From positions 1-64,000 of the IMG/VR virus record IMGVR_UViG_3300024346_008124: a DNA stretch of 64,000 nt. One strand, given 5' to 3'. Positions 18,926-35,051 of this stretch are shown here, in pieces. A program made the position numbers and the translations under genes. Each line of letters opens with the position of its first letter. Position 1 is the first letter of the stretch. This DNA is from a virus. Under the pieces are notes generated by a model that was given only the letters and a program-made list of their open reading frames with translations, did no database searches and was not told the DNA's origin.

Positions 18926-19722
18926 AACCGGAAACACACTGTGAAGGATGCGTATTTGCCGTAGAAAGAGACGGTAAGCAATCAGGATGTCAATTATACA
19001 GATCTGAAAAACTGGGGATAAAAGATAACGATGAAGACTTCTATACGCTAGAAAGGTACTGCAACACCTTTCGCCCAGAAGAGTGGCTAACAACGCTATC
19101 TTTAAAAGACCACAAGAATAGACATCAAGTAGTACTAAAAGAAATAGTCTCTAGGGTTGGATTTTTTGTTGTTTTAGATACATCTAAAGAAAACGCCATA
19201 CAAGACCTGCAAATAACCATAGAGGACATAAAAAACCAAACACTGCACAGGGCTAGGTACGTGGTGGTTGTAACAGATAAAACTGAATACAATGAAGAAA
19301 TTCAAAAGATGCTCGTAGAGAATTTTGACCACGACAAAACACTGCATCACCTAATAAAAGTTTCTCACATACCAGAAAAAAAGATGCTTTTAATTGATGA
19401 ATGCTTTAAACACGCTAAAAACGGATGGGTTTATACCACAACTTCCGGGCAGCGGGTTGATCAAGAGTTGATAGAGAAAATAAACCAAAGAGTAAATATA
19501 GATATGAAAAGACTATCTATAGTAAAGCCATACGAAGGTTTTAATGGACTATTGTTTTCAACTCCGCTTTTTAAATTTTTAAACGGAAATAATAAAACCG
19601 CTTATGAAACAGAAGATGGCGAACTTGGATTTGACGATAGACCCTTTTTAGAAAAGGTTGAAGACATGAAAGACGAAACTGGCGAAACTCTTATTACTTG
19701 GGAGGAATTTAATGCTTCCTAA
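18922..19722 (+). CDS. hypothetical protein (Cys-rich N-terminus, possible degenerate GT-A fold)
   Basis: CEGC...C...C N-terminus; IEDIKNQT...YVVVV resembles GT2 strands. Confidence 0.5.
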   Translation: MKPETHCEGCVFAVERDGKQSGCQLYRSEKLGIKDNDEDFYTLERYCNTFRPEEWLTTLSLKDHKNRHQVVLKEIVSRVGFFVVLDTSKENAIQDLQITIEDIKNQTLHRARYVVVVTDKTEYNEEIQKMLVENFDHDKTLHHLIKVSHIPEKKMLLIDECFKHAKNGWVYTTTSGQRVDQELIEKINQRVNIDMKRLSIVKPYEGFNGLLFSTPLFKFLNGNNKTAYETEDGELGFDDRPFLEKVEDMKDETGETLITWEEFNAS

Positions 19723-20446
19723 AATTGCTATTATCTGTGCTAACTATAACTACGGACGGTTTATTATTGAAGGCATGGAAAGTATAAAAAAACAACACTA
19801 CAAAGGCGAGATAAGGCTTTACATTGTAGACGATGGGTCTTCTGACGATTCATGGGAAAAAATATCAGAATTTGCAGAGAAAGATCCTGACTTTGTTTTT
19901 GCTCAAAGAATACAAAACTCAGGCGCTAGTGTGGCCCGTAACACAGCGTTAGCTGCCGCTTGGGAATGGGCTGATATATTTGGCATCCTAGATGCTGATG
20001 ACTCCTATAAGCTGAACAAGGTTGAAAAACTAGTAGAAAAGCTAATGGAATACCCAGAAGTTGGCGTTGCTTATGGAGACTATGATATTCATAGAAACTA
20101 TAGCGATAAACACTATGTAAAATATGAAGCTAAAGACTCATATTGCAGACGAGGATTATCTCAAAGTTGCATGATCCATAGTAACGCGCTTATCAAAAAA
20201 GAGTATTTAGAAAAGGTTGTGCTTCCTAATGGAGAAATCTTTGATAGTAGATTACATGGTCCCGCTAGCCGGGGTTTTATAGGATGTACAGAAGACTACG
20301 ACCTATGGCTAAGGCTGTCTCATTACTGTGTGATCTGCCATGTGCCAGAGTCTCTTTCTATAGTAAACGAAAGTGGTCAAAATCAATCTATGAAAATGAC
20401 ACCGGAAATCTTTCAACAACAAGCTCAGATCTTAGGTAGTAGATAG
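19712..20446 (+). CDS. GT2 glycosyltransferase
   Basis: IICANYNYGRFI, IVDDGSSD, NSGASVARN, ILDADD, EDYDLWLR. Confidence 0.92.
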   Translation: MLPKIAIICANYNYGRFIIEGMESIKKQHYKGEIRLYIVDDGSSDDSWEKISEFAEKDPDFVFAQRIQNSGASVARNTALAAAWEWADIFGILDADDSYKLNKVEKLVEKLMEYPEVGVAYGDYDIHRNYSDKHYVKYEAKDSYCRRGLSQSCMIHSNALIKKEYLEKVVLPNGEIFDSRLHGPASRGFIGCTEDYDLWLRLSHYCVICHVPESLSIVNESGQNQSMKMTPEIFQQQAQILGSR

Positions 20447-21174
20447 TGGCAAGATTTACAAGAGAAATAACAACCAGAGTAAAAAGTAAAAATAACAAAG
20501 ACGATATGGCTGTTATAATACTTTCTGCCGGTGTTGGAAGTAGGATAAAATCAAACGAGCCTAGAAGCTTAATAAAAATAGGCAGCAAAACCCTAATAGA
20601 GCATCAGATAGATTTAATAAACAACAATTTAGTAAACCATGAAATTATTGGAGCATTTGGTTATGCTATAGAAAAAATTATAAAGAAGATACATGGAAAA
20701 ATAAGGGTTGTAGAAAATCAAGTTTATGAAGATACAAATAACTCAGAAAGTCTTAGGCTTGCTGTAAACAATACTAATAAAAATAATATAATGTTTTTTC
20801 ATGGGGACTTATATTTTAACGATTCTATATTTAAAAACATAGATTTTAAAAAATCTTTTTTAGTTATAGATAGAAAAGATATGATGAAATCTAAAGAGAT
20901 AGGGGTCACTATACAAAACAATAAAGCCACAATATTGTCATATGGACTTCCTACAAAGTGGTGTCAAACAGCATTTATCACAGGTAGGGAGTTGAAGATA
21001 TTAAGGAGTATTTTATCAAAACTTCAAGGCAGTCAGAAAAAAATGCTGTCTTTTGAGATAATAAATAAAATGATTTCTATGGGAGCGAATTTTGAATGTT
21101 ATGAACCAAACGATATGTCTATAGTAGAAATAGACTGCATAAAGGACTTAAAGAATGAAAATTTTAATCTGTAG
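20446..21174 (+). CDS. sugar/phosphocholine-type nucleotidyltransferase (LicC/NTP_transf_3-like)
   Basis: IILSAGVGSR, PRSLIKIG, NNSESL, HGDL, EID. Confidence 0.8.
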   Translation: MARFTREITTRVKSKNNKDDMAVIILSAGVGSRIKSNEPRSLIKIGSKTLIEHQIDLINNNLVNHEIIGAFGYAIEKIIKKIHGKIRVVENQVYEDTNNSESLRLAVNNTNKNNIMFFHGDLYFNDSIFKNIDFKKSFLVIDRKDMMKSKEIGVTIQNNKATILSYGLPTKWCQTAFITGRELKILRSILSKLQGSQKKMLSFEIINKMISMGANFECYEPNDMSIVEIDCIKDLKNENFNL

Positions 21175-22207
21175 CGATGGTCGTCACGCACACTACTTCC
21201 AAAGAATGGCTTGGGCAAACGCTTTCGCCGCCGTGGGGTATCAAGTTATGCTGTGGGACTGCAAGACCGTCCCGGCTTTTGACATATTTGATCAGTTTGA
21301 ACCCGATGTGTTTTTGGGGCAGGCTTATAACCTAGACGAAGCTTTAATAAAGTGTATATATGAAAGACCACACCTGAAGGTGGGTCTACGTGCTGGAGAC
21401 TGGGGAGACCAAGAAAAAGAAGTAGACAAGTCTAGGTACAACATTTTGTTCTGCTCCAAGAAAGAAAAAGAACTACTTAAAAAACTCAAAGACGAAACGG
21501 GAAAACCAGACTTTGTACATATTCATTATAATGATGCCGACATTAAAAGAACTCATAACTATTTTGAAACCATCGGAATCAAACCTGTGTCGTTGATGAT
21601 GTGTGCAGATACAGCGGTTTACGGAGACGCTCAGGTTGATCAAAGGCTAACATGTGATATAGGCTTTGTGGGTGGCTATTGGCCTTACAAGGGGCAAGTG
21701 ATTGACCGCTATCTTACTCCACTATTACATCCTCTTGACCGTTACAAGGTAAAAATATTTGGAAACCAGCCTTGGGGGGTAAATCAATACTGCGGACTCA
21801 TAGACGATGGCGATGTCAAAAACCTTTTTAAGTCTGCGAAGATATGTCCAAATCTTAGCGAGCCTCACGCACAGGTATACGGCATAGATGTAAATGAAAG
21901 AATATTTAAGATTCTATATGCGGGCGGCTTCTGTATTAGCGATAATGTAGAAGCATACAAGATGTTTGGTGATGGTATTGTAATTGCAGATTCTCCAGAT
22001 GACTTTAGAGATAAGATTGAATACTATGCAAGCACTGATAAAGGGACGATAGATAGATCTTTTATTATTAAAAATGGTCAGGATTTTGTTACCGAAAACC
22101 ATACTGGCTTTCATAGGATTTCAACAATCATGGAAGCTGTTGGATACAGCGATGTAGCTGGGGAGATTTTGAAAGCTTACAAGGATAAATTAAATGAGCA
22201 AAAGTAA
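21155..22207 (+). CDS. CgeB-like GT-B glycosyltransferase
   Basis: DIGFVG, SAKICPN, VNERIFKILYAGGFCISD, HT. Confidence 0.82.
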   Translation: MKILICSDGRHAHYFQRMAWANAFAAVGYQVMLWDCKTVPAFDIFDQFEPDVFLGQAYNLDEALIKCIYERPHLKVGLRAGDWGDQEKEVDKSRYNILFCSKKEKELLKKLKDETGKPDFVHIHYNDADIKRTHNYFETIGIKPVSLMMCADTAVYGDAQVDQRLTCDIGFVGGYWPYKGQVIDRYLTPLLHPLDRYKVKIFGNQPWGVNQYCGLIDDGDVKNLFKSAKICPNLSEPHAQVYGIDVNERIFKILYAGGFCISDNVEAYKMFGDGIVIADSPDDFRDKIEYYASTDKGTIDRSFIIKNGQDFVTENHTGFHRISTIMEAVGYSDVAGEILKAYKDKLNEQK

Positions 22208-23159
22208 AGTTATTATTACGGGCGGCAGTGGTTTTCTTGGTAAGGCTGTAAACAAAACACTAAAAGACAATTTGTTCTATGACGTTGTGTCTCTTGGTGG
22301 TAAAAGAGATTACGATCTAACAAACCAAAAACAGGTTGACTATCTATATAAAGAACATGAACCAGATATAATTGTTCATTTAGCGGCTAAGGTTGGGGGA
22401 ATAGGTGCCAACAAAGGTAATCCGGGCCTTTTTCTTTATGAAAATCTGGTCATGGGTATGAATCTTATAGAAACCGCCAGAAAGTATGGAAAGCTTAAAA
22501 AGTTTGTAATGATTGGAACGGTTTGTGCGTATCCTAAATTTACACCTGTGCCTTTTAAAGAAGAAGATCTTTGGAACGGATATCCAGAAGAAACTAACGC
22601 GCCATACGGAATCGCTAAAAAAACCCTAACGGAAATGCTAATTGCCTATAATGACCAGTACGGTCTTAACTGCACAAACTTAATTCCTGTCAATATGTAC
22701 GGACCCAATGATCATTTTGACCCCGCGATCAGTCATGTTATTCCCGCTATTATCTTAAAAATAGATAAAGCTATTGATAAAAAAGAAGGCGCTGTTGAGC
22801 TATGGGGTACTGGAAAAGCCAGTAGAGAGTTTCTATACATAAACGACTGTGCGGAAGCTATTAAAAAAGCAGTAGAAATAGACACTACCCCACATCCAAT
22901 AAACATAGGAACAGGCTCTGAGTGTACAATTAAAGACTTAGCCAATAAAATCGGAAGGATGATGAACTACGAAGGATACGTAGGATTTAATACAAATAGC
23001 CTAGACGGACAACCTAGGAGGTGTTTAGATACGTCTAAAGCAAGTAAGGTATTGGGATTTGAAGCTAAAACAGATCTTGATAGAGGGTTGCATGATACAA
23101 TAAGTTGGTACTACAAAAATAAGGAAAAGTTTGTTGATTACTTCGATCATATTCAGTAA
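22194..23159 (+). CDS. fcl: GDP-L-fucose synthase / ColC-like epimerase-reductase
   Basis: TGGSGFLG, HLAAKVGGIGAN, GTVCAYPK, YGIAK, NMYGP, SHVIPA, WGTGKASREFLY. Confidence 0.92.
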   Translation: MSKSKVIITGGSGFLGKAVNKTLKDNLFYDVVSLGGKRDYDLTNQKQVDYLYKEHEPDIIVHLAAKVGGIGANKGNPGLFLYENLVMGMNLIETARKYGKLKKFVMIGTVCAYPKFTPVPFKEEDLWNGYPEETNAPYGIAKKTLTEMLIAYNDQYGLNCTNLIPVNMYGPNDHFDPAISHVIPAIILKIDKAIDKKEGAVELWGTGKASREFLYINDCAEAIKKAVEIDTTPHPINIGTGSECTIKDLANKIGRMMNYEGYVGFNTNSLDGQPRRCLDTSKASKVLGFEAKTDLDRGLHDTISWYYKNKEKFVDYFDHIQ

Positions 23160-23991
23160 AAATAGGCCACTTCAGCTTGACCTATGTTTAAAGAGCATAA
23201 AAAAGAACTTCAAGCAATCTACTAAGAATATTGTTATTTGCAATAACGACGAAGAGTTTGATGAAGCTCATCACACTTTAAAAAGCGAGCATTCAGATGT
23301 TATGTTTTGGAATCAGTCGGACTCTTTATTTCATGACATAAATAGAATGGTTAAACTCCCGCTCAATGATTATATTTGCTTTTTTGTGGACGACTGTATC
23401 TGTTTTAACAAAGTGGATTTACCACAAGACATATTTAATATTCCAGAAATTTGTTGCTTTTCTTTGCGGTTGGGTAAAAATATTTCACAAAGGATGCACG
23501 ACAACAAGGCTTATCCAGATGAACCATATAGCCACGGGCTTGACTCAACCGAAAAATATATGTTTTGGAATAAAACCTCTTACTGCTACGGTTCGTATTG
23601 GTCTTATTCTCACTCTGTTGACGGACATATATTTAAAAAGTCAGATATGCAAAAAATAACGTCTGAACTATGGGAGTTGTCTGAGTTTAAAAACTGGAAA
23701 CAAACACCAAATGAATTTGAATCTGCTATACAGAGATTTTGGCCTTTAAGCCCGCCCGTAATGGTGTGTCCGGTAGAAAGTTGTGTAGTAAATAGCCCAA
23801 ATAACAAAGTTCAAAAAAGTCACGACAATAGATCTGGAGATGTTTTTGACTACGATGAAAAAAAACTGCTTGAAAAATACAATAGTGGTCTTAGAATAGA
23901 CATAGAAGAAACCTGCGCTTATTTAAGACTACCATTTAATAAGATTAAATCCCCCCATACAGAAATTGATATTTTAAAAGGCTTAAAATGA
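23131..23991 (+). CDS. GT-A fold putative glycosyltransferase
   Basis: IIFSKNRPLQL, FFVDD, SLRLG, SVDGHIF, PNEFE. Confidence 0.7.
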   Translation: MLITSIIFSKNRPLQLDLCLKSIKKNFKQSTKNIVICNNDEEFDEAHHTLKSEHSDVMFWNQSDSLFHDINRMVKLPLNDYICFFVDDCICFNKVDLPQDIFNIPEICCFSLRLGKNISQRMHDNKAYPDEPYSHGLDSTEKYMFWNKTSYCYGSYWSYSHSVDGHIFKKSDMQKITSELWELSEFKNWKQTPNEFESAIQRFWPLSPPVMVCPVESCVVNSPNNKVQKSHDNRSGDVFDYDEKKLLEKYNSGLRIDIEETCAYLRLPFNKIKSPHTEIDILKGLK

Positions 23992-24734
23992 ATTACGACT
24001 TAATTATACCGTGTCATCCTAAAGACTATTTTAAGTTAAAATATTGCATTAGTTCCTGTGTAGAATTTTTAAATCCCAAACCTCAAAACATTTACATAGT
24101 TTCTCCAAATGAATTTTCTTTTACATCCCCGTCCATACCTATACACTCTATCCAAGACGAGTTTGCGATAAGAACTGATATAAATGATATTAATTTTCAA
24201 AGAAAAAACTGGATATATCAACAATTCATAAAACTAGGACAGGACTTTACTAAAAATGATATGTATCTATGTGTTGATAGCGATCTCTTCTTTAATAAGC
24301 CTATAGAATTATTCGATGAAGACAAGCCCAAGTTCTTTATAAGCGATAGAGAACAGCACCACCAGCCCTACTTTAACTTCATGAAAATATCTCATGATTT
24401 AGATAGACAGGTAGATCATACTTTTATTAATGACTTTATGATGTTTGACAGAAGTGTTTGCCACGAAATTATTGGTAACGATCTAAGTAACTTGTCGCCA
24501 CTCCTAGGATTCTGTAATAAAAATCTTTCAGACGACTGCCTCCTTTCTGAGTTTGAACTATATGGAAACTATGTTTCTAAGCACTATCCTGATTTGTATG
24601 CAAAACAAAATACAAAAACAAAAATGTTCGGAAGACATGTAAATCAACCTTGGAACGAAAGCGAGATTGATCAATACGTAAAATATATGAAAGATACTGA
24701 CTACGACTTATTCACCATGCATACTTGGACATAA
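23988..24734 (+). CDS. GT-A fold putative glycosyltransferase (DUF6492-like)
   Basis: IPCHPKD, WIYQQFIKL, CVDSD (DxD), SEFELYG. Confidence 0.72.
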   Translation: MNYDLIIPCHPKDYFKLKYCISSCVEFLNPKPQNIYIVSPNEFSFTSPSIPIHSIQDEFAIRTDINDINFQRKNWIYQQFIKLGQDFTKNDMYLCVDSDLFFNKPIELFDEDKPKFFISDREQHHQPYFNFMKISHDLDRQVDHTFINDFMMFDRSVCHEIIGNDLSNLSPLLGFCNKNLSDDCLLSEFELYGNYVSKHYPDLYAKQNTKTKMFGRHVNQPWNESEIDQYVKYMKDTDYDLFTMHTWT

Positions 24735-24735
24735 T

Positions 24736-25587
24736 ATGAGAATTGTAAATACATTTATTTCTGAAACAAACGAAATACCTAAATATACAGAACACTCTCT
24801 TAGGCAAGCTAGGAAATTCAACCCTTCCATTCCTATAGATTTTATATCTCCGTCTCCCGCTGAATATTTTGAAGAATTAAACATTAACTGGATTAACCAG
24901 TCAGGTATAAATAGCGAAGAGCTAAAAAGATTTAAAGAGGTTTCTTGGTTTGACAGACACGGAACACCCAATACAACACATCCTAGCCCGGAAGGGTTTT
25001 GGCAAAAAACAGCAGAAAGAATATTTTACCTTCAGGCTTATATAAAACAAAATAACCTAAATGAAATATTTCACTTTGAAAATGACGTTTTGTTGTACGA
25101 TAGTATAAATGAAATACAAACTACAGATAAATTAACCGTAACACCAATGTCTAGTAGTCATACCACTTTCGCTTTTACTTTTATACCTACGGCAGAAGAG
25201 ATAACTAAACTTTGCTGCTTTTTTAATAACGCCCTTTCTTTCGGAGAGAACAATTTATTATCTTTAGGGTATGACCACATAAGCGAAATGTCTCTTTTAA
25301 ATATGTCACTTAAAAATAACTTGGTTAGCGTGTTTCCCGTCGTACCCGCAGAAGATCAAAAATACGTATTTGATCCGGGGTCGTATGGTCAGCACTTAGG
25401 AGGCACAAACAATGGACATGCAGAGGGGTTTATAGATCCGTCTCACGTCATAGGGGCATATATAAAAACGGGTAAAATAGAAACTAAATTTGAAGAATGT
25501 CCGTATGTAAAATTTAAATACTCAAAAGATTGGTGTAAGGTTTTTAATCTACATGTCCACAGTAAAAACTTAGAGAGGTTTGTATGA
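24736..25587 (+). CDS. putative glycosyltransferase (GT-A, END motif)
   Basis: SLRQAR, FWQKTAERIFYL, HFENDVL, SEM, FDPGSYGQHLGG, NLHVHSK. Confidence 0.65.
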   Translation: MRIVNTFISETNEIPKYTEHSLRQARKFNPSIPIDFISPSPAEYFEELNINWINQSGINSEELKRFKEVSWFDRHGTPNTTHPSPEGFWQKTAERIFYLQAYIKQNNLNEIFHFENDVLLYDSINEIQTTDKLTVTPMSSSHTTFAFTFIPTAEEITKLCCFFNNALSFGENNLLSLGYDHISEMSLLNMSLKNNLVSVFPVVPAEDQKYVFDPGSYGQHLGGTNNGHAEGFIDPSHVIGAYIKTGKIETKFEECPYVKFKYSKDWCKVFNLHVHSKNLERFV

Positions 25588-26339
25588 TTGAAGACTTTAT
25601 AAGCGGAGATAAGTTTAAACAATTTTGTGATTTTGATTTTAGAAATCCTAAATTTAGATCAGACAAAAAATCTTATGTTATATACTCCGATCTAGACCGC
25701 TATGTAGACGCTATAAGCTTTGCCTCTCAGCATAGGGATAGGAATTTTGTTCTTGTTTCTCATAATGGAGACAAGACCGTAAATCATACGGGTCTACCGT
25801 TAAATATAAAGGCTTGGTATACTCAAAACCTAAACTTTGCTCACGATAGAGTTTTCGCTCTGCCTATAGGATTAGAAAATCCCCAGTGGCACCCCGGTAA
25901 AATTCCTCAGATGCTACGTATGACAGAGTCTTCAAAGCGAGTGAGCAAGGGGTTTTGCCAATTTAATCCAGACACATATCCCAAAGAGAGAAAAGACCTA
26001 GTACAAGACCTACAAAACAACCAGATAGAGGTAGATTCATACGAATGTATAAACGGTGAAAAATTCTTTCAATACTTATTTAATTTGAAGATTTATAAAT
26101 ACTGCTTTTGTCCGCGAGGAAACGGAATTGACACACATAGAATTTGGGAAGCTTTATATATGGGGTGTGTGCCAGTTGTAAAAAGACATATAACGCATGA
26201 GTTTTATGGAGATAAACTTCCTATAATGTTTGTAGATGAATGGCAAGATTTTAAAGATGTTGAATTTAAAATAAGTAGTTTTCAAAACCCCATTTTAACA
26301 ATGAAATACTGGAAAAATAAAATATGTCAAAGCCTTTAA
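25584..26339 (+). CDS. exostosin (GT47)-like glycosyltransferase
   Basis: HNGD, LPIGLEN, YCFCPRGNGIDTHRIWEALYMGCVPVV. Confidence 0.82.
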   Translation: MIEDFISGDKFKQFCDFDFRNPKFRSDKKSYVIYSDLDRYVDAISFASQHRDRNFVLVSHNGDKTVNHTGLPLNIKAWYTQNLNFAHDRVFALPIGLENPQWHPGKIPQMLRMTESSKRVSKGFCQFNPDTYPKERKDLVQDLQNNQIEVDSYECINGEKFFQYLFNLKIYKYCFCPRGNGIDTHRIWEALYMGCVPVVKRHITHEFYGDKLPIMFVDEWQDFKDVEFKISSFQNPILTMKYWKNKICQSL

Positions 26340-27262
26340 CAATCGACTTCCGCAATATGTGGGGAGGATTCTTTAAGCACGACAACCTGATAACAAATAC
26401 CCTGTCGCTAGAATATGAAGTCTCTGTAGACGAGCAAAATCCAGACATAGTGGTTTGTCAGGTGTGTCCCAAGAGCCACGGCGCTCCCGATCCCCAATCG
26501 CTTACCCAGTCGTTAAAAGGTAAGTCTAAAATAATCTATTGGCTAGTAGAGTCTATAGATAGAACGGGAGATCCCGACTATTCAAGCTGTGACTTTTCTT
26601 TTTCTTCCTGTCAACACCAAGATCAGAGAAACGTAAGGGTTCCGCTTTGGTCTATGTATGTTAACTGGTTTAAAGACAAGCAAGAAAGCTATATAGAGGA
26701 AAGAAATCAATCATTTCTAGTTTCGCCAACCAAGCTATTGCAGGCAAGAGATCATTCTCAGAAGAATAAGTTTTGTTGTATATTGACAAATAACGACATG
26801 GGCATGAGAAAAGAGGTTTATCCAGCATTTATAGGGCTTGGGATAGAGAACGGATTGCTAGTAGAAAGTAGGGGGCGATACTTAACAAATATGCCAGCTA
26901 TATTAGATGGCGAAAAAGATAAGCTAGAATATATAGATGCATTTAAGTTTAACCTTTGCTACGATAACGGAGAGGCCGCCGGTTGGGTTACTGAAAAACT
27001 AATTCACCCAATATATCAGGGATCTATACCTATCTACTGGGGATGTAGTAACGTTGCTTCAGAGTTTAATCAGGATAGATTTATCCACGCAAGAAACTTT
27101 GACAATCTACAGTCTATGTGGGACAAAGTTATGGAAATAAACTATAATAGAGACTTATTCTTAGATATTCAGTCACAGCCCTGTTTTCCAAACAACACAA
27201 TTCCTGATTGCGCCAATCCAGAATTTTTGATAGAAGAATTTAAGAAAGTGGTGGAAGCATGA
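26324..27262 (+). CDS. GT10 alpha-1,3/4-fucosyltransferase-like
   Basis: DFSFS, RVPLW, KFC, KFNLCYDN...GWVTEKL...IPIYWG, FNQDRFI. Confidence 0.85.
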   Translation: MSKPLTIDFRNMWGGFFKHDNLITNTLSLEYEVSVDEQNPDIVVCQVCPKSHGAPDPQSLTQSLKGKSKIIYWLVESIDRTGDPDYSSCDFSFSSCQHQDQRNVRVPLWSMYVNWFKDKQESYIEERNQSFLVSPTKLLQARDHSQKNKFCCILTNNDMGMRKEVYPAFIGLGIENGLLVESRGRYLTNMPAILDGEKDKLEYIDAFKFNLCYDNGEAAGWVTEKLIHPIYQGSIPIYWGCSNVASEFNQDRFIHARNFDNLQSMWDKVMEINYNRDLFLDIQSQPCFPNNTIPDCANPEFLIEEFKKVVEA

Positions 27263-28419
27263 CAATAAAACTATGTTCTGACATAATAGACAAACAAGAT
27301 ATAAACAACTTGATATCTTGGCTAGAGACTATGCCGAGGCTGACAAAAGGCCAAAAAACGTTAGAGTTTGAACAGATGTTTTCTTCCTACGTTGGGTGTG
27401 AGCATTCTATTTTTTGCAACTCAGGGTCTTCTGCGAACCTACTCATCACTTCTGCTCTAATGCAAAGCGGCATGATGAAAAATGATAAAATTATAGTACC
27501 TCAAGTATCTTGGTCTACAACCGTGTTTCCGGCTATGCAGCTAGGTCTGAAGCCGATAATGTGTGATTGTAACCTTTCAAACCTAGGTATTGATCTAGAT
27601 CATTTTGAATGGCTGGTTAAAAACCATAAACCCGCCGCCGTTATATTGGTGCATGTCTTAGGGCTAGAATCAAATATAGAAAAGGTGACGCAAATATGTG
27701 AGGATCATAATGTTATACTAGTGGAGGATACTTGCGAAAGCTTGGGTTCTTCTGTAGCCGGAAAGAAACTTGGAAATTTTGGGCTAGCTAGTTCTTTTTC
27801 TTTTTACTTTGGGCATCATATATCAACAATTGAAGGAGGTATGGTTTGCACAAATGATAAAGAGTTTGCAGATATTATTAAAATGATAAGAAGTCATGGG
27901 TGGGATAGAGATTTAGATGAAGAGGCAAAACTTAAATACAAGAAACAGTACGGCGTTAAAGAGTTTGACTCTTTGTATAAGTTTTATTATCAGGGTTTTA
28001 ATCTTAGGTCTACTGATTTGCAGGCGGTCATTGGTATAAATCAAATGTCTAAAATAGACAACATATCAAACGTAAGACAAAGAAACTATAATCATTACCT
28101 AAAGTCTATAAAAAGTGAACTATGGAAACCTCACTCACGACAGGAGGTGGTTTCTAATATGGGATATCCATTAATTGTTGGAAATAGAGAGGATTTATCT
28201 AGCGCTTTAGACGATAATGGTGTAGAATGTAGACCACTAGTCTCTGGAAGCATGGGCGCTCAACCAGCTTGGAAAAAAGAGTACGGAGAACTGACTATGC
28301 AGAACGCATCTGTAGTAAATAACAATGGTATGTATGTCCCCAATCATCAAGACTTAACAATTCAAGATATTGACAAAGTTTGCAAAATAATTAACGACAC
28401 AGGAAATCCGCATGTCTGA
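27259..28419 (+). CDS. ColD-like GDP-4-keto-6-deoxymannose 3-dehydratase (DegT family, His instead of Lys)
   Basis: NSGSSANL, EDTCES, SFYFGHHISTIEGG, RSHGW; 386 aa, no RfbH-type Fe-S insertion seen. Confidence 0.8.
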   Translation: MTIKLCSDIIDKQDINNLISWLETMPRLTKGQKTLEFEQMFSSYVGCEHSIFCNSGSSANLLITSALMQSGMMKNDKIIVPQVSWSTTVFPAMQLGLKPIMCDCNLSNLGIDLDHFEWLVKNHKPAAVILVHVLGLESNIEKVTQICEDHNVILVEDTCESLGSSVAGKKLGNFGLASSFSFYFGHHISTIEGGMVCTNDKEFADIIKMIRSHGWDRDLDEEAKLKYKKQYGVKEFDSLYKFYYQGFNLRSTDLQAVIGINQMSKIDNISNVRQRNYNHYLKSIKSELWKPHSRQEVVSNMGYPLIVGNREDLSSALDDNGVECRPLVSGSMGAQPAWKKEYGELTMQNASVVNNNGMYVPNHQDLTIQDIDKVCKIINDTGNPHV

Positions 28420-29230
28420 AATAATCAATCTAATACCAAACAATCCAGATGTACACGTTTATTCTAGAGCCGTAGAGTTATTGTCTGAAAAGCTGGAAGA
28501 AGACTACTCTTTCATAATAAACGTCTGGGATCACGAAATGCCAAAAGATACTAAGTATCCTAAGATTCTTGTATCGACCTCTGATGAGGCTCATAAGATG
28601 CCTAGCCAAGCCTATGATGGCAGCTATGTGCATGTGTTTAAGCAATATCAACCCATGATAAACACAGACGACCCCCTTTCTATAATAACTTCTGACAAAG
28701 TTACCGCCATACCCTTGTGCGAGCTAGATGGTATAGAAGATAAACAAATACCAATCTTGGAAAGAGAATACGACTGGTCTTGGATGGGGCAATTTGACCC
28801 CTACAGAAGAGTAGAATTTAGGAATTCTATAACACAACTAGAAAAAAACGAAAAGTTAAAAAACAAAGTTTTGTGGTATGAGGGATGGAACAATGGAGAA
28901 TCTACAGAATCTTACTGTGACGTTTTAAATCAGACAAAGATTATGCCCGTTCCTCGCGGTTCAGGCAGTCTAGAGTCATTTAGATTTTTTGAAGCTGCTA
29001 GATGTGGCTGTATACCCGTTTGCACTCAGCAGCCTCATGTAGATTTTTATAACGTTGCTCCTTATTTTTCAATTTCTTCTTGGTCTCACTTTGGAGAATT
29101 TGTAGAAAACATGAAACAAAGACAAAGCGAGATGGAATACCTGTCTGAACAGGTTAAAAACTGGCACAAATACTTCTGCTCCCCTCAAGGGCTTGCCGAC
29201 TTTATGTACAAGAGGATTAAAAATGTATAA
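28412..29230 (+). CDS. exostosin (GT47)-like glycosyltransferase
   Basis: YDWSWMGQ, PRGSGSLESFRFFEAARCGCIPV; paralog of 9834-10760. Confidence 0.8.
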   Translation: MSEIINLIPNNPDVHVYSRAVELLSEKLEEDYSFIINVWDHEMPKDTKYPKILVSTSDEAHKMPSQAYDGSYVHVFKQYQPMINTDDPLSIITSDKVTAIPLCELDGIEDKQIPILEREYDWSWMGQFDPYRRVEFRNSITQLEKNEKLKNKVLWYEGWNNGESTESYCDVLNQTKIMPVPRGSGSLESFRFFEAARCGCIPVCTQQPHVDFYNVAPYFSISSWSHFGEFVENMKQRQSEMEYLSEQVKNWHKYFCSPQGLADFMYKRIKNV

Positions 29231-29903
29231 AACATATGTCATGCACTATAAGCCACTACGAGACAGAAAGGAATTTATACTAAAGCAACTGTCTTCAAAG
29301 GGTATAGAAAATTTTGAATTTATAACGGATTTTGATAAAGATGTTTTGACAGAAAAAATCATAGAAGATTACTACCTAGAAGATGAAGAAAAACACTTCA
29401 AAGAGTGCCAAGTCTCTATGAGACAAGGAGAAAAATACCAATTCCAAAAAATGAAGTACGCCAGCATATCCCTTTGTATAAAGCATGTTGAGGCTTTTGA
29501 AAAAACAAAACAGCAAGAAGAAGATTTCGCACTATTTCTAGAAGATGATTGTAGATTTCATCAAGATTCTACATCTTTAGAAGAAATAATATCAAAAGCG
29601 CCACAAGACTGGGATGCCATAGTAATAGGTGGCCCATTTAAACATGATATATGCCAATACAACTTCATAGTCGGAGATGACAATTCAGCCTACTTAAAAG
29701 CTAAACATCCCGCGACTAATACGACTAGTAGTATACTCTACAGAAAGTCTACAGCAGAAAAAATAATGCCGTATGTGAAACCCTTTTCACTACCTATTGA
29801 TTGGCAGCTTAACTTTGCTTTCTGGAAAGCTAAATTAAACGTGTATCACATTTATCCATATATATCCACACAGGGAGACTTTAAGAGTACCGCAAATGAT
29901 TAA
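29223..29903 (+). CDS. GT25 glycosyltransferase
   Basis: YVMH...DRK, SLCIKH, LFLEDD, LPIDW; ATG at 29223 preferred. Confidence 0.82.
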   Translation: MYKTYVMHYKPLRDRKEFILKQLSSKGIENFEFITDFDKDVLTEKIIEDYYLEDEEKHFKECQVSMRQGEKYQFQKMKYASISLCIKHVEAFEKTKQQEEDFALFLEDDCRFHQDSTSLEEIISKAPQDWDAIVIGGPFKHDICQYNFIVGDDNSAYLKAKHPATNTTSSILYRKSTAEKIMPYVKPFSLPIDWQLNFAFWKAKLNVYHIYPYISTQGDFKSTAND

Positions 29904-30729
29904 TGTTAAATATGTAGGAAGGCTTGGAAACAACATGTTTCAGTATTCTCTAGGTAGGATACTAGCAGAGTCTATGGGTTTGAGACTTAATTCACCGCCC
30001 ATTCCAGAGTTCTCCAGAACTTTTGAACTAGTAAACCCAGAGCGAATAGAACCCTATGAGCCAATTGTTTTTAATGACCACGTTTTAAGAATAAATGATG
30101 AGCCTGTATCTGTAGAAGATATAGTTAATCTGAAAGATAAAGCCGTATACCTCGATGGATGGTTTCAAAGATACGAATATTACAAGCCCTATAAACAAAA
30201 AATTAGAGAATGGCTGGACATAGAAGATATAGACGTAGGACAGACGGATAACGATGCGATTGTTCACTTACGTATGGGCGATTGTATAACGGGAGACTTA
30301 GCAAAAGACCCATATGTGATGCCTCATGGGTACTTTAACAAAGCTCTAGAGATTATGGATTTTGATAATCTTTTCATATGCTCAGATCCAGAGACTTTAA
30401 ATCATCCACTATTTAAAAAATACATGGAGAATTTTAAAGAATACTGTCCCACACTACTATGTGGAGATAAAATAGAAGATTTTAGAGCCATAAAATCGTT
30501 TGATAAAATAGTCATGTCTCAAAGTACATTTTCTTGGTGGGGTGCATTCTTATCAAACGCTTCTCAAATATTTGTTCCGGTTCCAGAGCCGGGACCGCAC
30601 ACCAACGAATGGAGCCTAGAGAGCAGAAACGTTGCCGTTTTTGTAGATGACGAAGATAGATACAGCTACTTAAAGCAGTATGGGACAGAGTGGAAACTAG
30701 TAAACCTTAAAGATATACCGGAGACATAA
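29896..30729 (+). CDS. GT11 alpha-1,2-fucosyl/colitosyltransferase-like
   Basis: GRLGNNMFQY, GWFQ, HLRMGD, STFSWWGAFL. Confidence 0.9.
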   Translation: MINVKYVGRLGNNMFQYSLGRILAESMGLRLNSPPIPEFSRTFELVNPERIEPYEPIVFNDHVLRINDEPVSVEDIVNLKDKAVYLDGWFQRYEYYKPYKQKIREWLDIEDIDVGQTDNDAIVHLRMGDCITGDLAKDPYVMPHGYFNKALEIMDFDNLFICSDPETLNHPLFKKYMENFKEYCPTLLCGDKIEDFRAIKSFDKIVMSQSTFSWWGAFLSNASQIFVPVPEPGPHTNEWSLESRNVAVFVDDEDRYSYLKQYGTEWKLVNLKDIPET

Positions 30730-30730
30730 A

Positions 30731-31306
30731 ATGGAAAACAATTTTTATAACAAAGAGTATTGGTACGATAATTCACAAGAGCATTCAGACGTAGATAACT
30801 ATGGAGAAAATTACTACGCTTACAAAATATATAAAAACTTAATACTAAAACTTAAAGACATACCAGATACAGGATATATTGTTCTACTAGGAACAAACAG
30901 ATGTGTATCGTTTAATTTACTATGTGACCACTTCGGAAAAGATAGGTGTATCGGTTTTGATATTCACAATCCCACAAATCACCCGCGCGTTAAAATTAAA
31001 GACTGCACAAAATTATCAGAACTAGACAATATACCCATAGCATTTTGCCACAACGACTTGGGAAGTTTTCCAAAAACTCCAAAATTAAAAATACATGGGC
31101 AAAATTGGGCTGCCGCAAATATAATTAATGGAGGATATTTTTTAGGAAGGAATAATTTAAATGCTGCTAAATTTAAATCAGAAGAGTTTATGAAAGACTT
31201 AGGATTTGAAAACAAGCAATTTAAGGATATTGTAAATGATTACGATATGACAGACTTTGAAGAATCTTGCATAGAGGGACACATGATCTCAAGGAGAACC
31301 GTATGA
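30731..31306 (+). CDS. hypothetical protein, possible SAM-methyltransferase-like fold
   Basis: IVLLGT...CIGFDI...INGGYF pattern; very AT-rich. Confidence 0.5.
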   Translation: MENNFYNKEYWYDNSQEHSDVDNYGENYYAYKIYKNLILKLKDIPDTGYIVLLGTNRCVSFNLLCDHFGKDRCIGFDIHNPTNHPRVKIKDCTKLSELDNIPIAFCHNDLGSFPKTPKLKIHGQNWAAANIINGGYFLGRNNLNAAKFKSEEFMKDLGFENKQFKDIVNDYDMTDFEESCIEGHMISRRTV

Positions 31307-31965
31307 GCATAATAAAAGACTACAATCTAGATAAATACAACTTCTGTGAAGAGGTAAAGAATATTTTTTATGTTGATGAATTAAAAAATCTACACATAGA
31401 AAGAAGCGATTTATTACCTCAAGATAAATTAAACTTTGACAATGAGACAAAAACAGACTTTCATTCCACCTTTTACGGGGGTTTAAAGTCTAAAAAAGGA
31501 AAGGCTATAAAAGATATTTACAATAGCTTCATTTCCGAGATTGTTGCACCTATGTTTAATAGAAGTTTCGTGTATCAGGCTTTTCCAAGCTTTAGGGTCC
31601 ACATACCCAACGACCAAGCTGTGCATAAATGGCACTATGATTCTGACGAAAACCACAACCACCCCGATTGGGAGATAAACTTTCAGCTAGCGCTTACTAA
31701 TATGTACGAAAGTAACGCTATGTGGATAGAATCGGTTCCGGGGCTTAGAGACTTTAAACCTTTGGAAATGAATCTTGGGCAATTCGCAATTTTTTATGGC
31801 AATCAGTGCGCTCATGGGAATAAGGAGAATACAACTGGTAACACAAGGGTTAGTATGGATTTTAGGGTTATCCCATATGAAAAATATGATGAATCTAAAG
31901 CAAAGAATTCCGCTACCGCAAATACAAAATTTGTTATTGGAGAATATTATAGGCTGTATAAATAA
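31303..31965 (+). CDS. 2OG-Fe(II) oxygenase (StrG-like)
   Basis: HYD facial-triad motif, distal HGN, RVSMDFR; ATG 31303 with AAGGAG SD. Confidence 0.78.
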   Translation: MSIIKDYNLDKYNFCEEVKNIFYVDELKNLHIERSDLLPQDKLNFDNETKTDFHSTFYGGLKSKKGKAIKDIYNSFISEIVAPMFNRSFVYQAFPSFRVHIPNDQAVHKWHYDSDENHNHPDWEINFQLALTNMYESNAMWIESVPGLRDFKPLEMNLGQFAIFYGNQCAHGNKENTTGNTRVSMDFRVIPYEKYDESKAKNSATANTKFVIGEYYRLYK

Positions 31966-32615
31966 TGTACACTAAAACACAAGATGTAATAGAACTACTA
32001 GAGAAGCAAGGTTACAGTATAAGTGACCCTTGGGATATCGTGGAAGCTTTTGAAGACAAGGTCGCAAAATACGCAGGCAGTAAGTATGCGGTAGCTACAG
32101 ACAGTTGTACCAATAGTATATTTCTATGCTTAAAGTATCTGCAAGCAACCGGCAAAGTGGAAGTCCCGAAGAAGACATATTTATCTGTACCTCAAAGTGT
32201 TATCCACGCAGGATGTGAGGTTGAATTTACTGATCTTGAGTGGTCTGGAGCCTATAGACTAAACCCATATCCAATTGTAGACAGCGCCACGAAGTTTACT
32301 AAAGGTATGTATATTGAAGATTCGTATCAATGTCTGTCTTTTCACATTAGAAAAATACTACCCATTGCTAAAGGTGGTATGATATTGACAAACGACAAGA
32401 GTGCTGTAGAGTGGCTTAAACTAGCAGAGTACGAAGGAAGAGATAGGCGTGTCCCTCACGACGAAATGCCGCCCCCAGCCATGCTGGGATGGAATATGTA
32501 CATGCCCCCTGAGCAGGCCGCTAGGGGCATAGAACTGTTTGAACAAGCTAAAGACTTTAACGAAGACTCTGGCGGTTCTTGGAAATATAAAGACATATCA
32601 CACTATAAATACTAA
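31965..32615 (+). CDS. short DegT/DnrJ-family PLP aminotransferase
   Basis: FEDKVAKYAG, DSCT, DSA, SFHIRKILPIAKGGMILT with the catalytic Lys; only 216 aa. Confidence 0.8.
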   Translation: MYTKTQDVIELLEKQGYSISDPWDIVEAFEDKVAKYAGSKYAVATDSCTNSIFLCLKYLQATGKVEVPKKTYLSVPQSVIHAGCEVEFTDLEWSGAYRLNPYPIVDSATKFTKGMYIEDSYQCLSFHIRKILPIAKGGMILTNDKSAVEWLKLAEYEGRDRRVPHDEMPPPAMLGWNMYMPPEQAARGIELFEQAKDFNEDSGGSWKYKDISHYKY

Positions 32616-32626
32616 TAGGAATTTTA

Positions 32627-34964: not shown

Positions 34965-35018
34965 TTTAGGATTCACTTTATCGTTATGACTAGATCATAA
35001 TTCACAGTATAGTCCTAT

Positions 35019-35051
35019 AAAAAAACCCCGCCGTGATTGGCGGGGTTTTTT
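35019..35051. terminator. bidirectional rho-independent terminator
   Basis: AAAAAAA-CCCCGCC-gtgatt-GGCGGGG-TTTTTT between convergent gene blocks. Confidence 0.93.

What the first reader, a model, noticed from the sequence alone, without database searches (positions are those of the whole stretch)
22194..30729. Possible phage GDP-colitose/fucose pathway with a Lewis-antigen-like transferase set
Seen: the DegT-family enzyme at 27259 has GHHISTIEGG, with His where aminotransferases have the Schiff-base Lys, and a ColD-like length. An Fcl-family reductase, GT10, GT11 and GT25 lie nearby. Established: ColD plus the Fcl homolog ColC make GDP-L-colitose (3-deoxy-L-fucose); GT11 includes alpha-1,2-fucosyl- and colitosyltransferases; GT10, GT11 and GT25 are the families Helicobacter uses for Lewis antigens. 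Inference: the phage makes a fucose- or colitose-capped, Lewis-like glycan. The upstream enzyme Gmd is not in this window, so it must come from the host or from elsewhere in the genome.
Basis: partly seen in the sequence, partly recalled or inferred. Interest (0 to 1): 0.8.

Follow-up and report, generated by a model that had tools for sequence, protein, structure and literature searches.

The report
Phage GDP-colitose-type sugar genes
An uncultured marine phage carries, inside a roughly 20-gene block of soluble sugar-transferring enzymes, two intact enzymes that most likely turn a GDP-mannose-derived intermediate into the rare 3,6-dideoxy sugar colitose; the chemistry is known from bacteria, and the same kind of gene is common but unrecognised in environmental and cultured phages.

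Summary
The 386-aa DegT-family protein (27259-28419) has FGHHISTIEGG, with His at the catalytic position. An Fcl-family reductase, a GT10 and a GT11 lie nearby. The GT25 match is below Pfam's cut-off.

The dehydratase is ColD-like by sequence (E 1.6e-62), by fold (the top nine PDB hits are ColD) and by its lack of RfbH's Fe-S cysteines. In trees it falls in a marine/viral clade beside canonical ColD. Grouping it with RfbH is rejected (AU p 0.017). The reductase is intact, scores like ColC rather than Fcl (272 bits; ColC 304, Fcl 551), and belongs to a third clade whose context-known members all neighbour a ColD-like gene.

gmd is absent from the 79-kb record, but two collinear relatives carry it beside the terminase, beyond our contig's end. 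In this lineage colD is coupled (ATGA overlap) to the GT10-like gene, which is the best candidate transferase for the sugar.

The "Lewis-like" reading is untested and rests on three of about 15 transferase-like genes. The glycan's target is unknown. Cyanophage gmd/fcl/GT10/GT11/GT25 clusters are already published. At least 581 IMG/VR contigs and cultured cyanophages carry ColD-like genes. This scan has noted such cassettes before on other DNA (230 notes).

The parts
27259..28419 (+). ColD-type PMP-dependent NDP-4-keto-6-deoxyhexose 3-dehydratase (386 aa). Most likely a GDP-4-keto-6-deoxy-D-mannose 3-dehydratase.
   Evidence: Pfam DegT 245 bits. Motif FGHHISTIEGG. PDB ColD 215 bits vs E1 141 vs PerA 136. 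Tree and AU test. Residues. Fold TM 0.84-0.87 to ColD.
22194..23159 (+). Fcl-family extended-SDR 3,5-epimerase/4-reductase (321 aa). Candidate GDP-L-colitose synthase (ColC-like function); may also be able to make GDP-L-fucose.
   Evidence: NCBIfam Fcl model 272 bits (cut-off 500; E. coli ColC 304, E. coli Fcl 551). T107/C109/Y136/K140/H179 kept. Robust third clade 98/94, whose 5 context-known members are all next to a ColD-like gene.
26324..27262 (+). GT10-like (alpha-1,3-fucosyltransferase family) glycosyltransferase. Its stop codon overlaps the colD start (ATGA). Best candidate colitosyl/fucosyl transferase.
   Evidence: Pfam GT10 C-terminal 40.3 bits and FucT_N 27.9 bits, both above cut-off. 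H. pylori FucT 2nzw E 1e-16 with motif FNLCYDNGEAAGWVTEK. Adjacent to colD in 15/17 same-lineage IMG/VR loci and 15 metagenome loci, including after relocation beside phoH. ATGA overlap.
29896..30729 (+). GT11-like (alpha-1,2-fucosyl/colitosyl-transferase family) glycosyltransferase.
   Evidence: Pfam GT11 31.2 bits (cut-off 23.9). Motifs HLRMGD and STFSWWGAFL. 24% identity, E 7e-9, full-length alignment to the E. coli O55 O-antigen GT11. In relative G311 its homolog lies beside gmd.
29193..29903 (+). GT25-like protein (weak assignment).
   Evidence: Pfam GT25 22.2 bits, below the 24-bit cut-off, E 1.5e-4.
25584..26339 (+). GT47/RXYLT1-like putative glycosyltransferase, paralog of 28412-29230 and 9834-10760.
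   Evidence: Pfam Exostosin_GT47 29.8 bits and RXYLT1_C 26.1 bits, both just below cut-off.
28412..29230 (+). GT47/RXYLT1-like putative glycosyltransferase, directly downstream of colD (8-nt overlap).
   Evidence: Pfam RXYLT1_C 24.1 bits, Exostosin 18.8 bits, sub-threshold. Syntenic in relatives.
23131..25587 (+). Three ORFs of unknown or weakly assigned function (23131-23991, 23988-24734, 24736-25587). Probably further GT-A-type transferases.
   Evidence: No Pfam hit, or DUF6492 at 17.8 bits. Atlas: virus-dominated hypothetical clusters with weak GT2/GT8/DUF6492 leads. Conserved in synteny.
14757..22207 (+). Upstream half of the same co-oriented, overlapping gene block: GT4 x3 (14757-18509), unknown (18509-18925), weak GT2-like (18922-19722), GT2 (19712-20446), MobA/IspD-like nucleotidyltransferase (20446-21174), GT4-like (21155-22207).
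   Evidence: Pfam hits. No transmembrane segments.
30731..33097 (+). Tail of the block: two unknown ORFs (30731-31965), a short 216-aa DegT-like protein that keeps the Lys (31965-32615), and an unknown 156-aa ORF (32627-33097).
   Evidence: Pfam DegT 73.8 bits in two stretches. Lys retained in 'IRK' aligned to the Per Lys. Homologs of 29896-32615 sit next to gmd in G311.

Best explanation
The window is part of an uncultured marine tailed phage (lineage genome at least 147 kb). Downstream of its replication genes it carries one tightly packed, same-strand block of about 25 soluble proteins (14.7-33 kb) that builds a glycan. Within the block, the 27259-28419 product is a ColD-type, PMP-dependent 3-dehydratase. 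It would form a Schiff base between PMP and GDP-4-keto-6-deoxy-D-mannose, use the active-site His (in place of the aminotransferase Lys) to expel the C3 hydroxyl, release GDP-4-keto-3,6-dideoxy-D-mannose, and be recharged by glutamate without an Fe-S partner. The 22194-23159 product, an intact Fcl-family epimerase/reductase of a ColD-associated clade, would then epimerise C5 and reduce C4 to give GDP-L-colitose. The substrate comes from Gmd acting on host GDP-mannose. Gmd is probably phage-encoded off this contig (next to the terminase, as in two collinear relatives), otherwise it is the host's. The GT10-like enzyme, translationally coupled to colD, is the most likely transferase for the new sugar, with the GT11-like enzyme as a second candidate. 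Shown here: family, fold, catalytic residues, phylogeny, gene linkage. Inferred: substrate, product, donor use. The acceptor is unknown. I lean slightly to phage structural proteins (about 45%) over the host envelope (about 40%).
For: Dehydratase: ColD is the best solved relative by sequence (215 bits vs 141 for E1 and 136 for PerA) and by fold (ranks 1-9 all ColD, TM 0.84-0.87; GDP-perosamine synthase next, E1 at rank 33; model pLDDT 83). The catalytic His is present in 37/37 clade members. Arg219, Asn248, Arg250, Arg331 and Asn371 of ColD are kept, and 70 of 109 near-invariant ColD positions are identical. At 38 positions that discriminate ColD from RfbH, the phage matches ColD at 18 and RfbH at 5. 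Four of the 5 RfbH-invariant Cys are absent. Trees: His-dehydratases vs aminotransferases 100/99; RfbH excluded 99/95; AU test rejects phage clade + RfbH (delta lnL 32, p 0.017). GDP-sugar context: in 63 more distant viral loci, gmd lies within 10 kb in 51 (adjacent in 33) and an Fcl-like gene in 48. The same triad occurs in Woesearchaeota, Reichenbachiella and Pelagibacteraceae genomes and in cultured Synechococcus phage ACG-2014f, where gp209 is Gmd at 559 bits. Reductase: catalytic residues intact; ColC-range score on the Fcl model; third clade at 98/94 with 5/5 context-known members next to ColD. gmd in relatives G311 and G313, which are collinear with this record. GT10-colD coupling.
Against: No enzyme of this dehydratase clade or this reductase clade has been characterised. 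Identity to E. coli ColD is only about 33%, and the sister relation to canonical ColD is weakly supported (80/45). Ser187, which contributes to ColD's reaction specificity, is Gly here, although the literature says this site is not conserved among dehydratases. gmd is not on this record, and none of 17 same-lineage loci has it within 10 kb. The gmd of the relatives scores just under the curated cut-off (398 vs 415) or carries an insertion. The reductase lies 4.1 kb from colD and keeps both epimerisation residues, so it could equally make GDP-fucose; residue diagnostics for Fcl vs ColC are undecided (3 vs 2). GT10 enzymes are known as fucosyltransferases, and I know of none shown to transfer colitose. 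The AU groups were named after a first tree had been seen, so the p-value is somewhat optimistic.
Confidence: 0.6

Rival explanations
1. Fucose, or both sugars. The reductase works mainly as an ordinary GDP-L-fucose synthase on Gmd's product and GT10/GT11 are true fucosyltransferases. The ColD-like enzyme only diverts part of the pool, so the phage glycan carries fucose with or without colitose.
For: The reductase keeps every Fcl catalytic residue, including Cys109/His179. It aligns better to E. coli Fcl (201 bits, 36%) than to E. coli ColC (159 bits, 32%). In ACG-2014f, Reichenbachiella and others, the ColD-adjacent reductase sits among true Fcl. GT10 and GT11 are fucosyltransferase families. 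Cyanophage gmd/fcl/fucosyltransferase sets are published (PMC9602691).
Against: It scores 272 bits on the Fcl equivalog model, in the ColC range and far below true Fcl at 414-551. Its clade is separate from the Fcl equivalogs (98/94 and 100/92) and its context-known members are all next to ColD. colD is translationally coupled to GT10 and moves with it, which argues that the ColD product feeds that transferase.
Confidence: 0.25
2. A different deoxy sugar. The His-type enzyme is a 3-dehydratase (or a related PMP enzyme) for another NDP-4-keto-6-deoxyhexose, or its product is finished by another enzyme to a 3,6-dideoxyhexose other than L-colitose.
For: It belongs to an uncharacterised clade at about 33% identity to ColD, with Gly for Ser187. 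Public annotation calls cultured-phage relatives 'CDP-4-keto-6-deoxy-D-glucose-3-dehydrase'. The block also holds a MobA/IspD-like nucleotidyltransferase and a short DegT-like protein of unknown role.
Against: It has no E1/SpnQ-type Fe-S cysteines and no E3-like reductase in the block. ColD's Arg219 is kept where RfbH has Cys. The nearest folds are the two GDP-4-keto-6-deoxymannose enzymes, ColD and GDP-perosamine synthase. gmd, not a CDP- or dTDP-glucose dehydratase, is the recurrent neighbour in the clade. The 'CDP' names are automatic KO-style labels.
Confidence: 0.12
3. Host-surface remodelling. The block does not decorate the phage. Instead it rebuilds a host lipid-linked glycan (O-antigen, LOS or capsule) during infection, using host initiating, flipping and ligating enzymes, for example to block superinfection or to stop progeny from sticking to debris.
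For: This is the usual reading of cyanophage 'LPS/cell-wall modification' clusters (PMC9602691, PMC12801897). Bacterial O-antigen transferases are also soluble or peripheral, so the lack of membrane proteins does not exclude it. The block is co-oriented with the replication genes rather than the structural genes.
Against: No initiating phosphoglycosyltransferase, flippase, polymerase, ligase or exporter is found among the 25 proteins. A sulfotransferase lies inside the structural operon next to a fibre-like and a lectin-domain protein, and in relatives gmd lies next to the terminase. The idea has never been shown for any of these phages.
Confidence: 0.4

Closest known systems
GDP-L-colitose pathway of E. 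coli O55/O111 (Gmd, ColD = WbdK with PDB 2gms/3b8x/2r0t/3gr9, ColC = WbdJ, and a GT11 colitosyltransferase)
   Same: Same enzyme families and the same predicted chemistry. A His-type, Fe-S-free, about 388-aa PMP dehydratase with ColD's Arg219/Asn248/Arg250/Arg331, plus an Fcl-family epimerase/reductase and a GT11 in the same gene block. Relatives of the phage enzyme are flanked by gmd just as in bacteria.
   Different: Both phage enzymes lie in sister clades, not in the characterised clades (about 33% identity; Gly for Ser187). The genes are dispersed: the reductase is 4 kb upstream and gmd is off-contig, beside the terminase in relatives. colD is coupled to a GT10 rather than a GT11. There is no wzx/wzy/O-antigen machinery. 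It is carried by a virus.
'LPS / cell-wall modification' gene clusters of T4-like cyanophages (P-SSM2, S-SSM7, S-SCSM1, S-SCSM2R, ACG-2014f)
   Same: Phage-borne runs of many glycosyltransferases (including GT10, GT11, GT25, GT2, GT4) with gmd, fcl-type and DegT-type genes and a sulfotransferase. ACG-2014f has a contiguous Gmd / Fcl-like / His-type ColD-like triad.
   Different: Unrelated phage lineage (DnaE-type split polymerase; TerL at most 27% identical to any cultured phage). The published accounts read these genes as fucose/LPS genes or generic aminotransferases and do not mention a 3-dehydratase or colitose. The gene order is different and the GT10-colD pair is specific to this lineage.
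CDP-6-deoxy-L-threo-D-glycero-4-hexulose 3-dehydrase E1 (RfbH/AscC; PDB 3bcx)
   Same: His in place of the Schiff-base Lys, C3 deoxygenation of an NDP-4-keto-6-deoxyhexose, and the same fold.
   Different: E1 is about 437 aa, binds a [2Fe-2S] cluster through cysteines that the phage protein lacks, and needs the E3 reductase. Trees and the AU test separate it from the phage clade.
Virion glycosylation in mycobacteriophages and virus-encoded glycosylation in chloroviruses and mimiviruses
   Same: Virus-encoded soluble transferases (and, in giant viruses, sugar-nucleotide pathways for rare sugars) that could act on structural proteins in the cytoplasm.
   Different: No evidence here that virion proteins are the acceptor. 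Those systems are not known (from my own knowledge and the literature searches here) to use 3,6-dideoxyhexoses.

Membership tests
ColD (GDP-4-keto-6-deoxy-D-mannose 3-dehydratase) | Fold-type I (DegT/aspartate-aminotransferase-like) PLP/PMP enzyme of about 390 aa | tested here: met
   Pfam DegT 245 bits over residues 12-378. 386 aa. AlphaFold model pLDDT 83, TM 0.84-0.87 to ColD chains.
ColD (GDP-4-keto-6-deoxy-D-mannose 3-dehydratase) | Catalytic His (His188) in place of the Schiff-base Lys | tested here: met
   FGHHISTIEGG. The first His aligns with His188. His in 37/37 clade members, Lys in 8/9 aminotransferases.
ColD (GDP-4-keto-6-deoxy-D-mannose 3-dehydratase) | No [2Fe-2S] cysteine motif (this distinguishes ColD from E1 and SpnQ; PMC8987622) | tested here: met
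   Four of 5 RfbH-invariant Cys columns are non-Cys (T, R, L, Y/L), as in ColD. The fifth Cys is shared with ColD.
ColD (GDP-4-keto-6-deoxy-D-mannose 3-dehydratase) | Falls inside the clade of characterised ColD orthologs | tested here: not met
   Separate marine/viral clade (98/98) beside canonical ColD (100/100). The sister link is only 80/45. RfbH is excluded at 99/95, AU p 0.017.
ColD (GDP-4-keto-6-deoxy-D-mannose 3-dehydratase) | Ser187 next to the catalytic His (S187N/H188K converts ColD to an aminotransferase) | tested here: not met
   Gly in the phage and in 35/37 clade members, Ala in RfbH. The literature notes that Ser187 is not conserved among characterised dehydratases.
ColD (GDP-4-keto-6-deoxy-D-mannose 3-dehydratase) | Genomic association with gmd (the source of the GDP-4-keto-6-deoxymannose substrate) | tested here: inconclusive
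   Absent from the 79-kb record and from within 10 kb in 17 lineage loci. Present elsewhere in 2 collinear relatives. Within 10 kb in 51/63 more distant viral loci and adjacent in 4 cellular genomes.
ColD (GDP-4-keto-6-deoxy-D-mannose 3-dehydratase) | Catalytic activity: C3 deoxygenation with glutamate-driven PMP regeneration | not testable with these tools
   Needs an enzyme assay.
ColC (GDP-L-colitose synthase) / Fcl (GDP-L-fucose synthase) | Extended SDR with the Ser/Thr-Tyr-Lys triad and the Cys109/His179 epimerisation pair (E. coli Fcl numbering, recalled from the literature) | tested here: met
   T107, C109, Y136, K140 and H179 are all present. They are invariant in all three clades, so they do not discriminate ColC from Fcl.
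Fcl (GDP-L-fucose synthase equivalog, NCBIfam NF047922) | Score at or above the curated equivalog cut-off (500 bits) | tested here: not met
   272 bits. E. coli Fcl 551, other true Fcl 414-533, E. coli ColC 304.
ColC (GDP-L-colitose synthase) | Falls inside the clade of E. coli ColC and its ColD-adjacent orthologs | tested here: not met
   Third clade (98/94), distinct from canonical ColC (100/100) and from the Fcl equivalogs (100/92).
ColC (GDP-L-colitose synthase) | Gene linked to colD | tested here: met
   Same block, 4.1 kb upstream. Same spacing in 9/17 lineage loci, and directly adjacent in L113. The 5 clade members with known context are all next to ColD.
GT10 (alpha-1,3/4-fucosyltransferases) | Pfam GT10 domains above cut-off and the alpha-1,3-FucT motif (F-x-L-x-F-E-N ... 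Y-x-T-E-K) | tested here: met
   40.3 and 27.9 bits, both above cut-off. FNLCYDNGEAAGWVTEK vs H. pylori FNLCFENTQGYGYVTEK: TEK kept, E to D, Y to W. Donor specificity not testable.
GT11 (alpha-1,2-fucosyl/colitosyl-transferases) | Pfam GT11 above cut-off and the HxRRGD and SxFSWW motifs (motifs recalled from the literature) | tested here: met
   31.2 bits. HLRMGD (second Arg replaced by Met) and STFSWWGAFL. Full-length alignment to the E. coli O55 GT11, E 7e-9.
GT25 | Pfam GT25 above the gathering cut-off | tested here: inconclusive
   22.2 bits against a 24-bit cut-off, E 1.5e-4.
Lewis-antigen-type glycan system (Helicobacter-like) | Gal-GlcNAc backbone made by a GT25 galactosyltransferase and capped by GT10/GT11 deoxyhexosyl transfer | not testable with these tools
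   Family co-occurrence only. GT25 is sub-threshold and the acceptor and linkages are unknown.

The most novel reading that the evidence does not exclude
The GT10-like enzyme that is translationally coupled to colD is a colitosyltransferase, which would be the first GT10 shown to use GDP-colitose. The all-soluble block of about 20 genes, together with the sulfotransferase in the structural operon, builds a colitose-bearing and possibly sulfated glycan on the phage's own giant structural or fibre proteins. That would be a bacteriophage virion-glycosylation system using a 3,6-dideoxyhexose.
Probability: 0.2. Interest if true: 0.75.

Novelty: new variant of a known kind. Interest (0 to 1): 0.45.

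Why it matters
Colitose and other 3,6-dideoxyhexoses are regarded as rare bacterial O-antigen sugars. If this reading is right, they are also made under the direction of many marine and freshwater phages: at least 581 IMG/VR contigs, plus cultured cyanophages whose genes are labelled only "aminotransferase/epimerase" or given a CDP-sugar name. That would correct a widespread annotation. It would define two uncharacterised enzyme clades (a ColD sister and a ColC-like reductase) that are easy to test in vitro. It would also point to a candidate new donor specificity in family GT10. Finally, it sharpens an open question, namely what lytic phages build with their large transferase blocks (host surface, virion or something else), because a distinctive sugar such as colitose can be traced chemically.

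Tried and rejected
- The long metagenome contigs (146.6 kb, 105.8 kb) could not be searched whole. IMG/VR copies were used instead.
RfbH references were reached through a Glaciecola genome handle.
- The ColD structural paper PMC2533848 is not held. The GDP-contact residues therefore rest on conservation analysis and my memory, not on the paper.
- I rejected the idea that 31965-32615 and 32627-33097 are halves of a split DegT gene. Their homologs lie 68 kb apart in G311, and the first is a conserved stand-alone short protein.
- I rejected the 'megaphage of about 600 kb' reading from CheckV's 13%. Collinear relatives are rated 54-72% complete at 83-106 kb, and a 146.6-kb contig exists.
- Residue diagnostics for Fcl versus ColC were undecided (3 vs 2 of 6).
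- For the DNA-glycosylation rival, no thymidylate-synthase-family hydroxymethylase was found in this record or four relatives. These are fragments, so this is a weak negative.
- No ManC-type nucleotidyltransferase was found in the same records.
- Promoter and terminator scans were at chance level (67 vs 62.7 +/- 8.3; 16 vs 12.4 +/- 3.1). No tRNAs.
- Megablast of the block against GenBank phages found nothing.
- No complex-prediction job was sent, because no binding claim is made.
- Genome G049 was flagged unpublished.

Full report
WHAT THE DNA IS. The window is the first 64 kb of a 79,097-b IMG/VR virus record. Genes 1-14.7 kb (+) are replication genes: PhoH, a RecA-like protein, DnaB, primase, dNMP kinase, a PD-(D/E)XK nuclease, and a DnaE split around an exonuclease gene. 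Genes 14.7-34.6 kb (+) are sugar enzymes. From 35 kb on, the minus strand carries giant structural ORFs of up to 3,293 aa. CheckV's 13% completeness is doubtful. Collinear relatives are rated 54-72% complete at 83-106 kb, and a 146.6-kb contig of the lineage exists. There is no close cultured relative: TerL of a relative is at most 27% identical to anything in the GenBank phage collection, and megablast of the block finds nothing.

THE OBSERVATION. The DegT-family protein (386 aa) reads FGHHISTIEGG. In the HMMER alignment to E. coli ColD, the first His falls on catalytic His188, which is the residue changed in the H188N structure 3b8x. GT10 and GT11 pass Pfam's cut-offs. GT25 does not (22.2 vs 24 bits). 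The three families are a selection. The block also holds four GT4, one or two GT2, three GT47/RXYLT1-like proteins, a MobA/IspD-like nucleotidyltransferase, several virus-specific unknowns with weak GT-A leads, and a short DegT-like protein.

IS THE DEHYDRATASE A ColD? I took reference sequences from annotated genomes rather than from memory. ColD and ColC came from E. coli O55:H7 and O111, Per from O157:H7, and ArnB and WecE from the same genomes. A further 29 ColD orthologs came from species genomes. Five RfbH proteins that pass NCBIfam's equivalog cut-off were also used.
- In an 86-row tree and a 50-row tree with bootstraps, the His-type dehydratases separate from the aminotransferases (100/99).
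- RfbH splits off first (99/95 for the remainder).
- Canonical ColD (100/100) and a marine/viral clade holding the phage protein (98/98) are neighbours, but that sister link is weak (80/45).
- Forcing the phage clade together with RfbH costs 32 log-likelihood units (AU p 0.017). The groups were named after the first tree, so this p-value is somewhat optimistic.
- Of 109 near-invariant ColD positions, 70 are identical in the phage protein. Arg219 is Arg in 37/37 clade members, where RfbH has one of its Fe-S cysteines. Asn248, Arg250, Arg331 and Asn371 are kept. Ser187 is Gly.
- At 38 positions that discriminate ColD from RfbH, the phage sides with ColD at 18, with RfbH at 5 and with neither at 15. 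Four of five RfbH-invariant cysteines are missing.
- An AlphaFold model (pLDDT 83) has ColD chains as its nine best PDB matches (TM 0.84-0.87). GDP-perosamine synthase, the other enzyme that uses GDP-4-keto-6-deoxymannose, comes next. E1 is at rank 33.
- The review PMC8987622 confirms the established points: His-for-Lys marks 3-dehydratases, and ColD, unlike E1 and SpnQ, has no Fe-S cluster and recycles PMP with glutamate. A preprint notes that Ser187 is not conserved among characterised dehydratases.
Conclusion: it works like ColD, but it is a member of an uncharacterised sister clade.

WHICH NUCLEOTIDE SUGAR? Gene context across the clade points to GDP. In 63 IMG/VR loci with 47-54% identical enzymes, gmd lies within 10 kb in 51 (adjacent in 33) and an Fcl-like gene in 48. 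A Woesearchaeota MAG has the order gmd, colD-like, fcl-like. Reichenbachiella, Pelagibacteraceae and Glaciecola genomes have gmd beside the gene. The cultured Synechococcus phage ACG-2014f has Gmd (559 bits), an Fcl-like gene and a His-type ColD-like gene in a row, annotated only as epimerases and an aminotransferase.

THE REDUCTASE. It keeps the SDR triad and the Cys/His epimerisation pair, but so do Fcl and ColC, so these residues do not discriminate. On the Fcl equivalog model it scores 272 bits. E. coli ColC scores 304, another ColC 302, E. coli Fcl 551, and other true Fcl 414-533. Trees give three robust groups: Fcl equivalogs (100/92), canonical ColC (100/100, all ColD-adjacent), and a third clade (98/94). 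The third clade holds the phage protein, its metagenomic relatives, four viral reductases next to ColD, and the Woesearchaeota reductase that follows gmd and colD. The reductase tree therefore mirrors the dehydratase tree, which is what a co-evolving enzyme pair would give. A fucose-synthase activity is not excluded.

WHERE IS gmd? It is not in the record and not within 10 kb of colD in any of 17 same-lineage loci. However, two relatives that are collinear with this record over about 70 kb (in reverse orientation) carry a gmd in the order sigma-70-like gene / unknown / gmd / ... / large terminase / portal-sized gene. G313 has a 332-aa gmd (Pfam 384 bits; TIGR01472 398 bits, just under the 415 cut-off). 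G311 has a 388-aa form with an insertion. By synteny this region lies beyond the 3' end of our record. In G311 the homologs of our GT11, the two unknown ORFs and the short DegT-like gene sit next to that gmd, which links them to Gmd's product. No ManC-type gene was found in five records, so GDP-mannose should come from the host.

THE TRANSFERASES. In this lineage the GT10-like gene always lies directly upstream of colD, 3-15 nt apart in 15 of 17 IMG/VR loci. It is also directly upstream in the 15 lineage metagenome loci that extend far enough upstream, some of which are the same contigs. This holds even where the pair has moved next to phoH, away from the rest of the block. Here the GT10 stop and the colD start overlap as ATGA. 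The protein's best solved relative is H. pylori alpha-1,3-fucosyltransferase (E 1e-16), with the family motif largely intact. The GT11-like protein carries HLRMGD and STFSWWGAFL, and aligns over its full length with the E. coli O55 O-antigen GT11 (24% identity, E 7e-9). From my own knowledge, that E. coli enzyme is the colitosyltransferase WbgN. I infer that GT10 is the likeliest user of the ColD-pathway sugar and that GT11 is a second candidate. Donor specificity cannot be tested here.

THE TARGET. None of the 25 block proteins has a hydrophobic segment, and no initiating phosphoglycosyltransferase, flippase, polymerase, ligase or exporter is present. A PAPS-type sulfotransferase lies in the structural operon, beside a fibre-like protein and a ConA-like lectin-domain protein (record 73,974-74,786). 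This leans towards decoration of phage proteins. Bacterial O-antigen transferases are also soluble, though, so remodelling of a host lipid-linked glycan remains nearly as likely. DNA glycosylation has no support, since no hydroxymethylase was found.

COMPARISON WITH WHAT IS KNOWN. The chemistry is that of the bacterial colitose pathway. Phage glycan clusters with gmd, fcl, GT10, GT11, GT25 and DegT-type genes are published for cyanophages and are read there as cell-wall/LPS modification (PMC9602691, PMC12801897). S-CAM7 and S-H68 relatives are annotated as CDP-sugar 3-dehydratases. A full-text search for colitose and phage returned only papers on O-antigens as receptors, and none on viral synthesis. 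At least 581 IMG/VR contigs encode relatives. Earlier notes of this scan describe the same kind of cassette on other DNA (230 notes in at least 180 genomes). My tests agree with their general reading.

WHAT IS PARTICULAR HERE. The pathway is dispersed, the GT10-colD pair is coupled, and the reductase belongs to a third clade. The 'Lewis-like' idea remains an untested analogy.

Noticed in passing
window 31965-32615 (+): A 216-aa stand-alone DegT-like protein. It keeps the Schiff-base Lys ('IRK') and the cofactor Asp, but lacks about 50 residues of the large domain and the whole C-terminal domain. It is 81% identical in relative G311, where it sits beside gmd and the GT11 homolog. It may be a partner subunit or a novel small PLP protein (compare the Ser4/Ser5 hetero-oligomer, PMC11726168).
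   Followed up: partly
window 10723-14734 (+): A DnaE-type polymerase split into two ORFs (PHP plus catalytic core; fingers plus HhH plus OB), with a DEDDh/RNase T-type exonuclease gene between them. The same layout is conserved in G311 and G313.
   Followed up: partly
G000 record 73974-74786 (-), i.e. L281:9974-10786, beyond the window: A PAPS-type sulfotransferase (Pfam 74.8 bits) inside the structural operon, next to an 878-aa fibre-like protein and a ConA-like lectin-domain protein. The neighbouring 298-aa ORF has no Pfam match, so the earlier 'GT9-like' note is not confirmed.
   Followed up: partly
window 9834-10760, 25584-26339, 28412-29230 (+): Three paralogous proteins with sub-threshold matches to the mainly eukaryotic Exostosin GT47 / RXYLT1 C-terminal domains. 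One of them sits in the replication module, between the nuclease and DnaE.
   Followed up: no
window 33090-33869 (+): An HNH/homing-endonuclease-like gene (PHROG 559, DUF559) at the end of the glyco block. It is conserved in the same place in relatives (51-92% identity), so it is not a recent mobile insertion.
   Followed up: partly
L117, L119, L134 and L190-L195 (related contigs): In one sub-lineage the GT10-colD gene pair lies between phoH and the replication genes instead of in the glyco block. The two genes moved as a unit.
   Followed up: partly
L274:6171-7337 (relative G311): The gmd of G311 is 388 aa and matches the Gmd model in two stretches (1-208, 206-340) within one open frame, so it carries an insertion of roughly 50 residues.
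   Followed up: no
window 34001-36000: GC content jumps to 0.457 (against a background of about 0.37-0.39) where the plus-strand and minus-strand gene sets converge. No tRNA is found there.
   Followed up: no
window 20446-21174 (+): A MobA/IspD-like nucleotidyltransferase (NTP_transf_3, 32 bits) within the block. This hints at a second activated-sugar or alditol-phosphate donor made by the phage.
   Followed up: no
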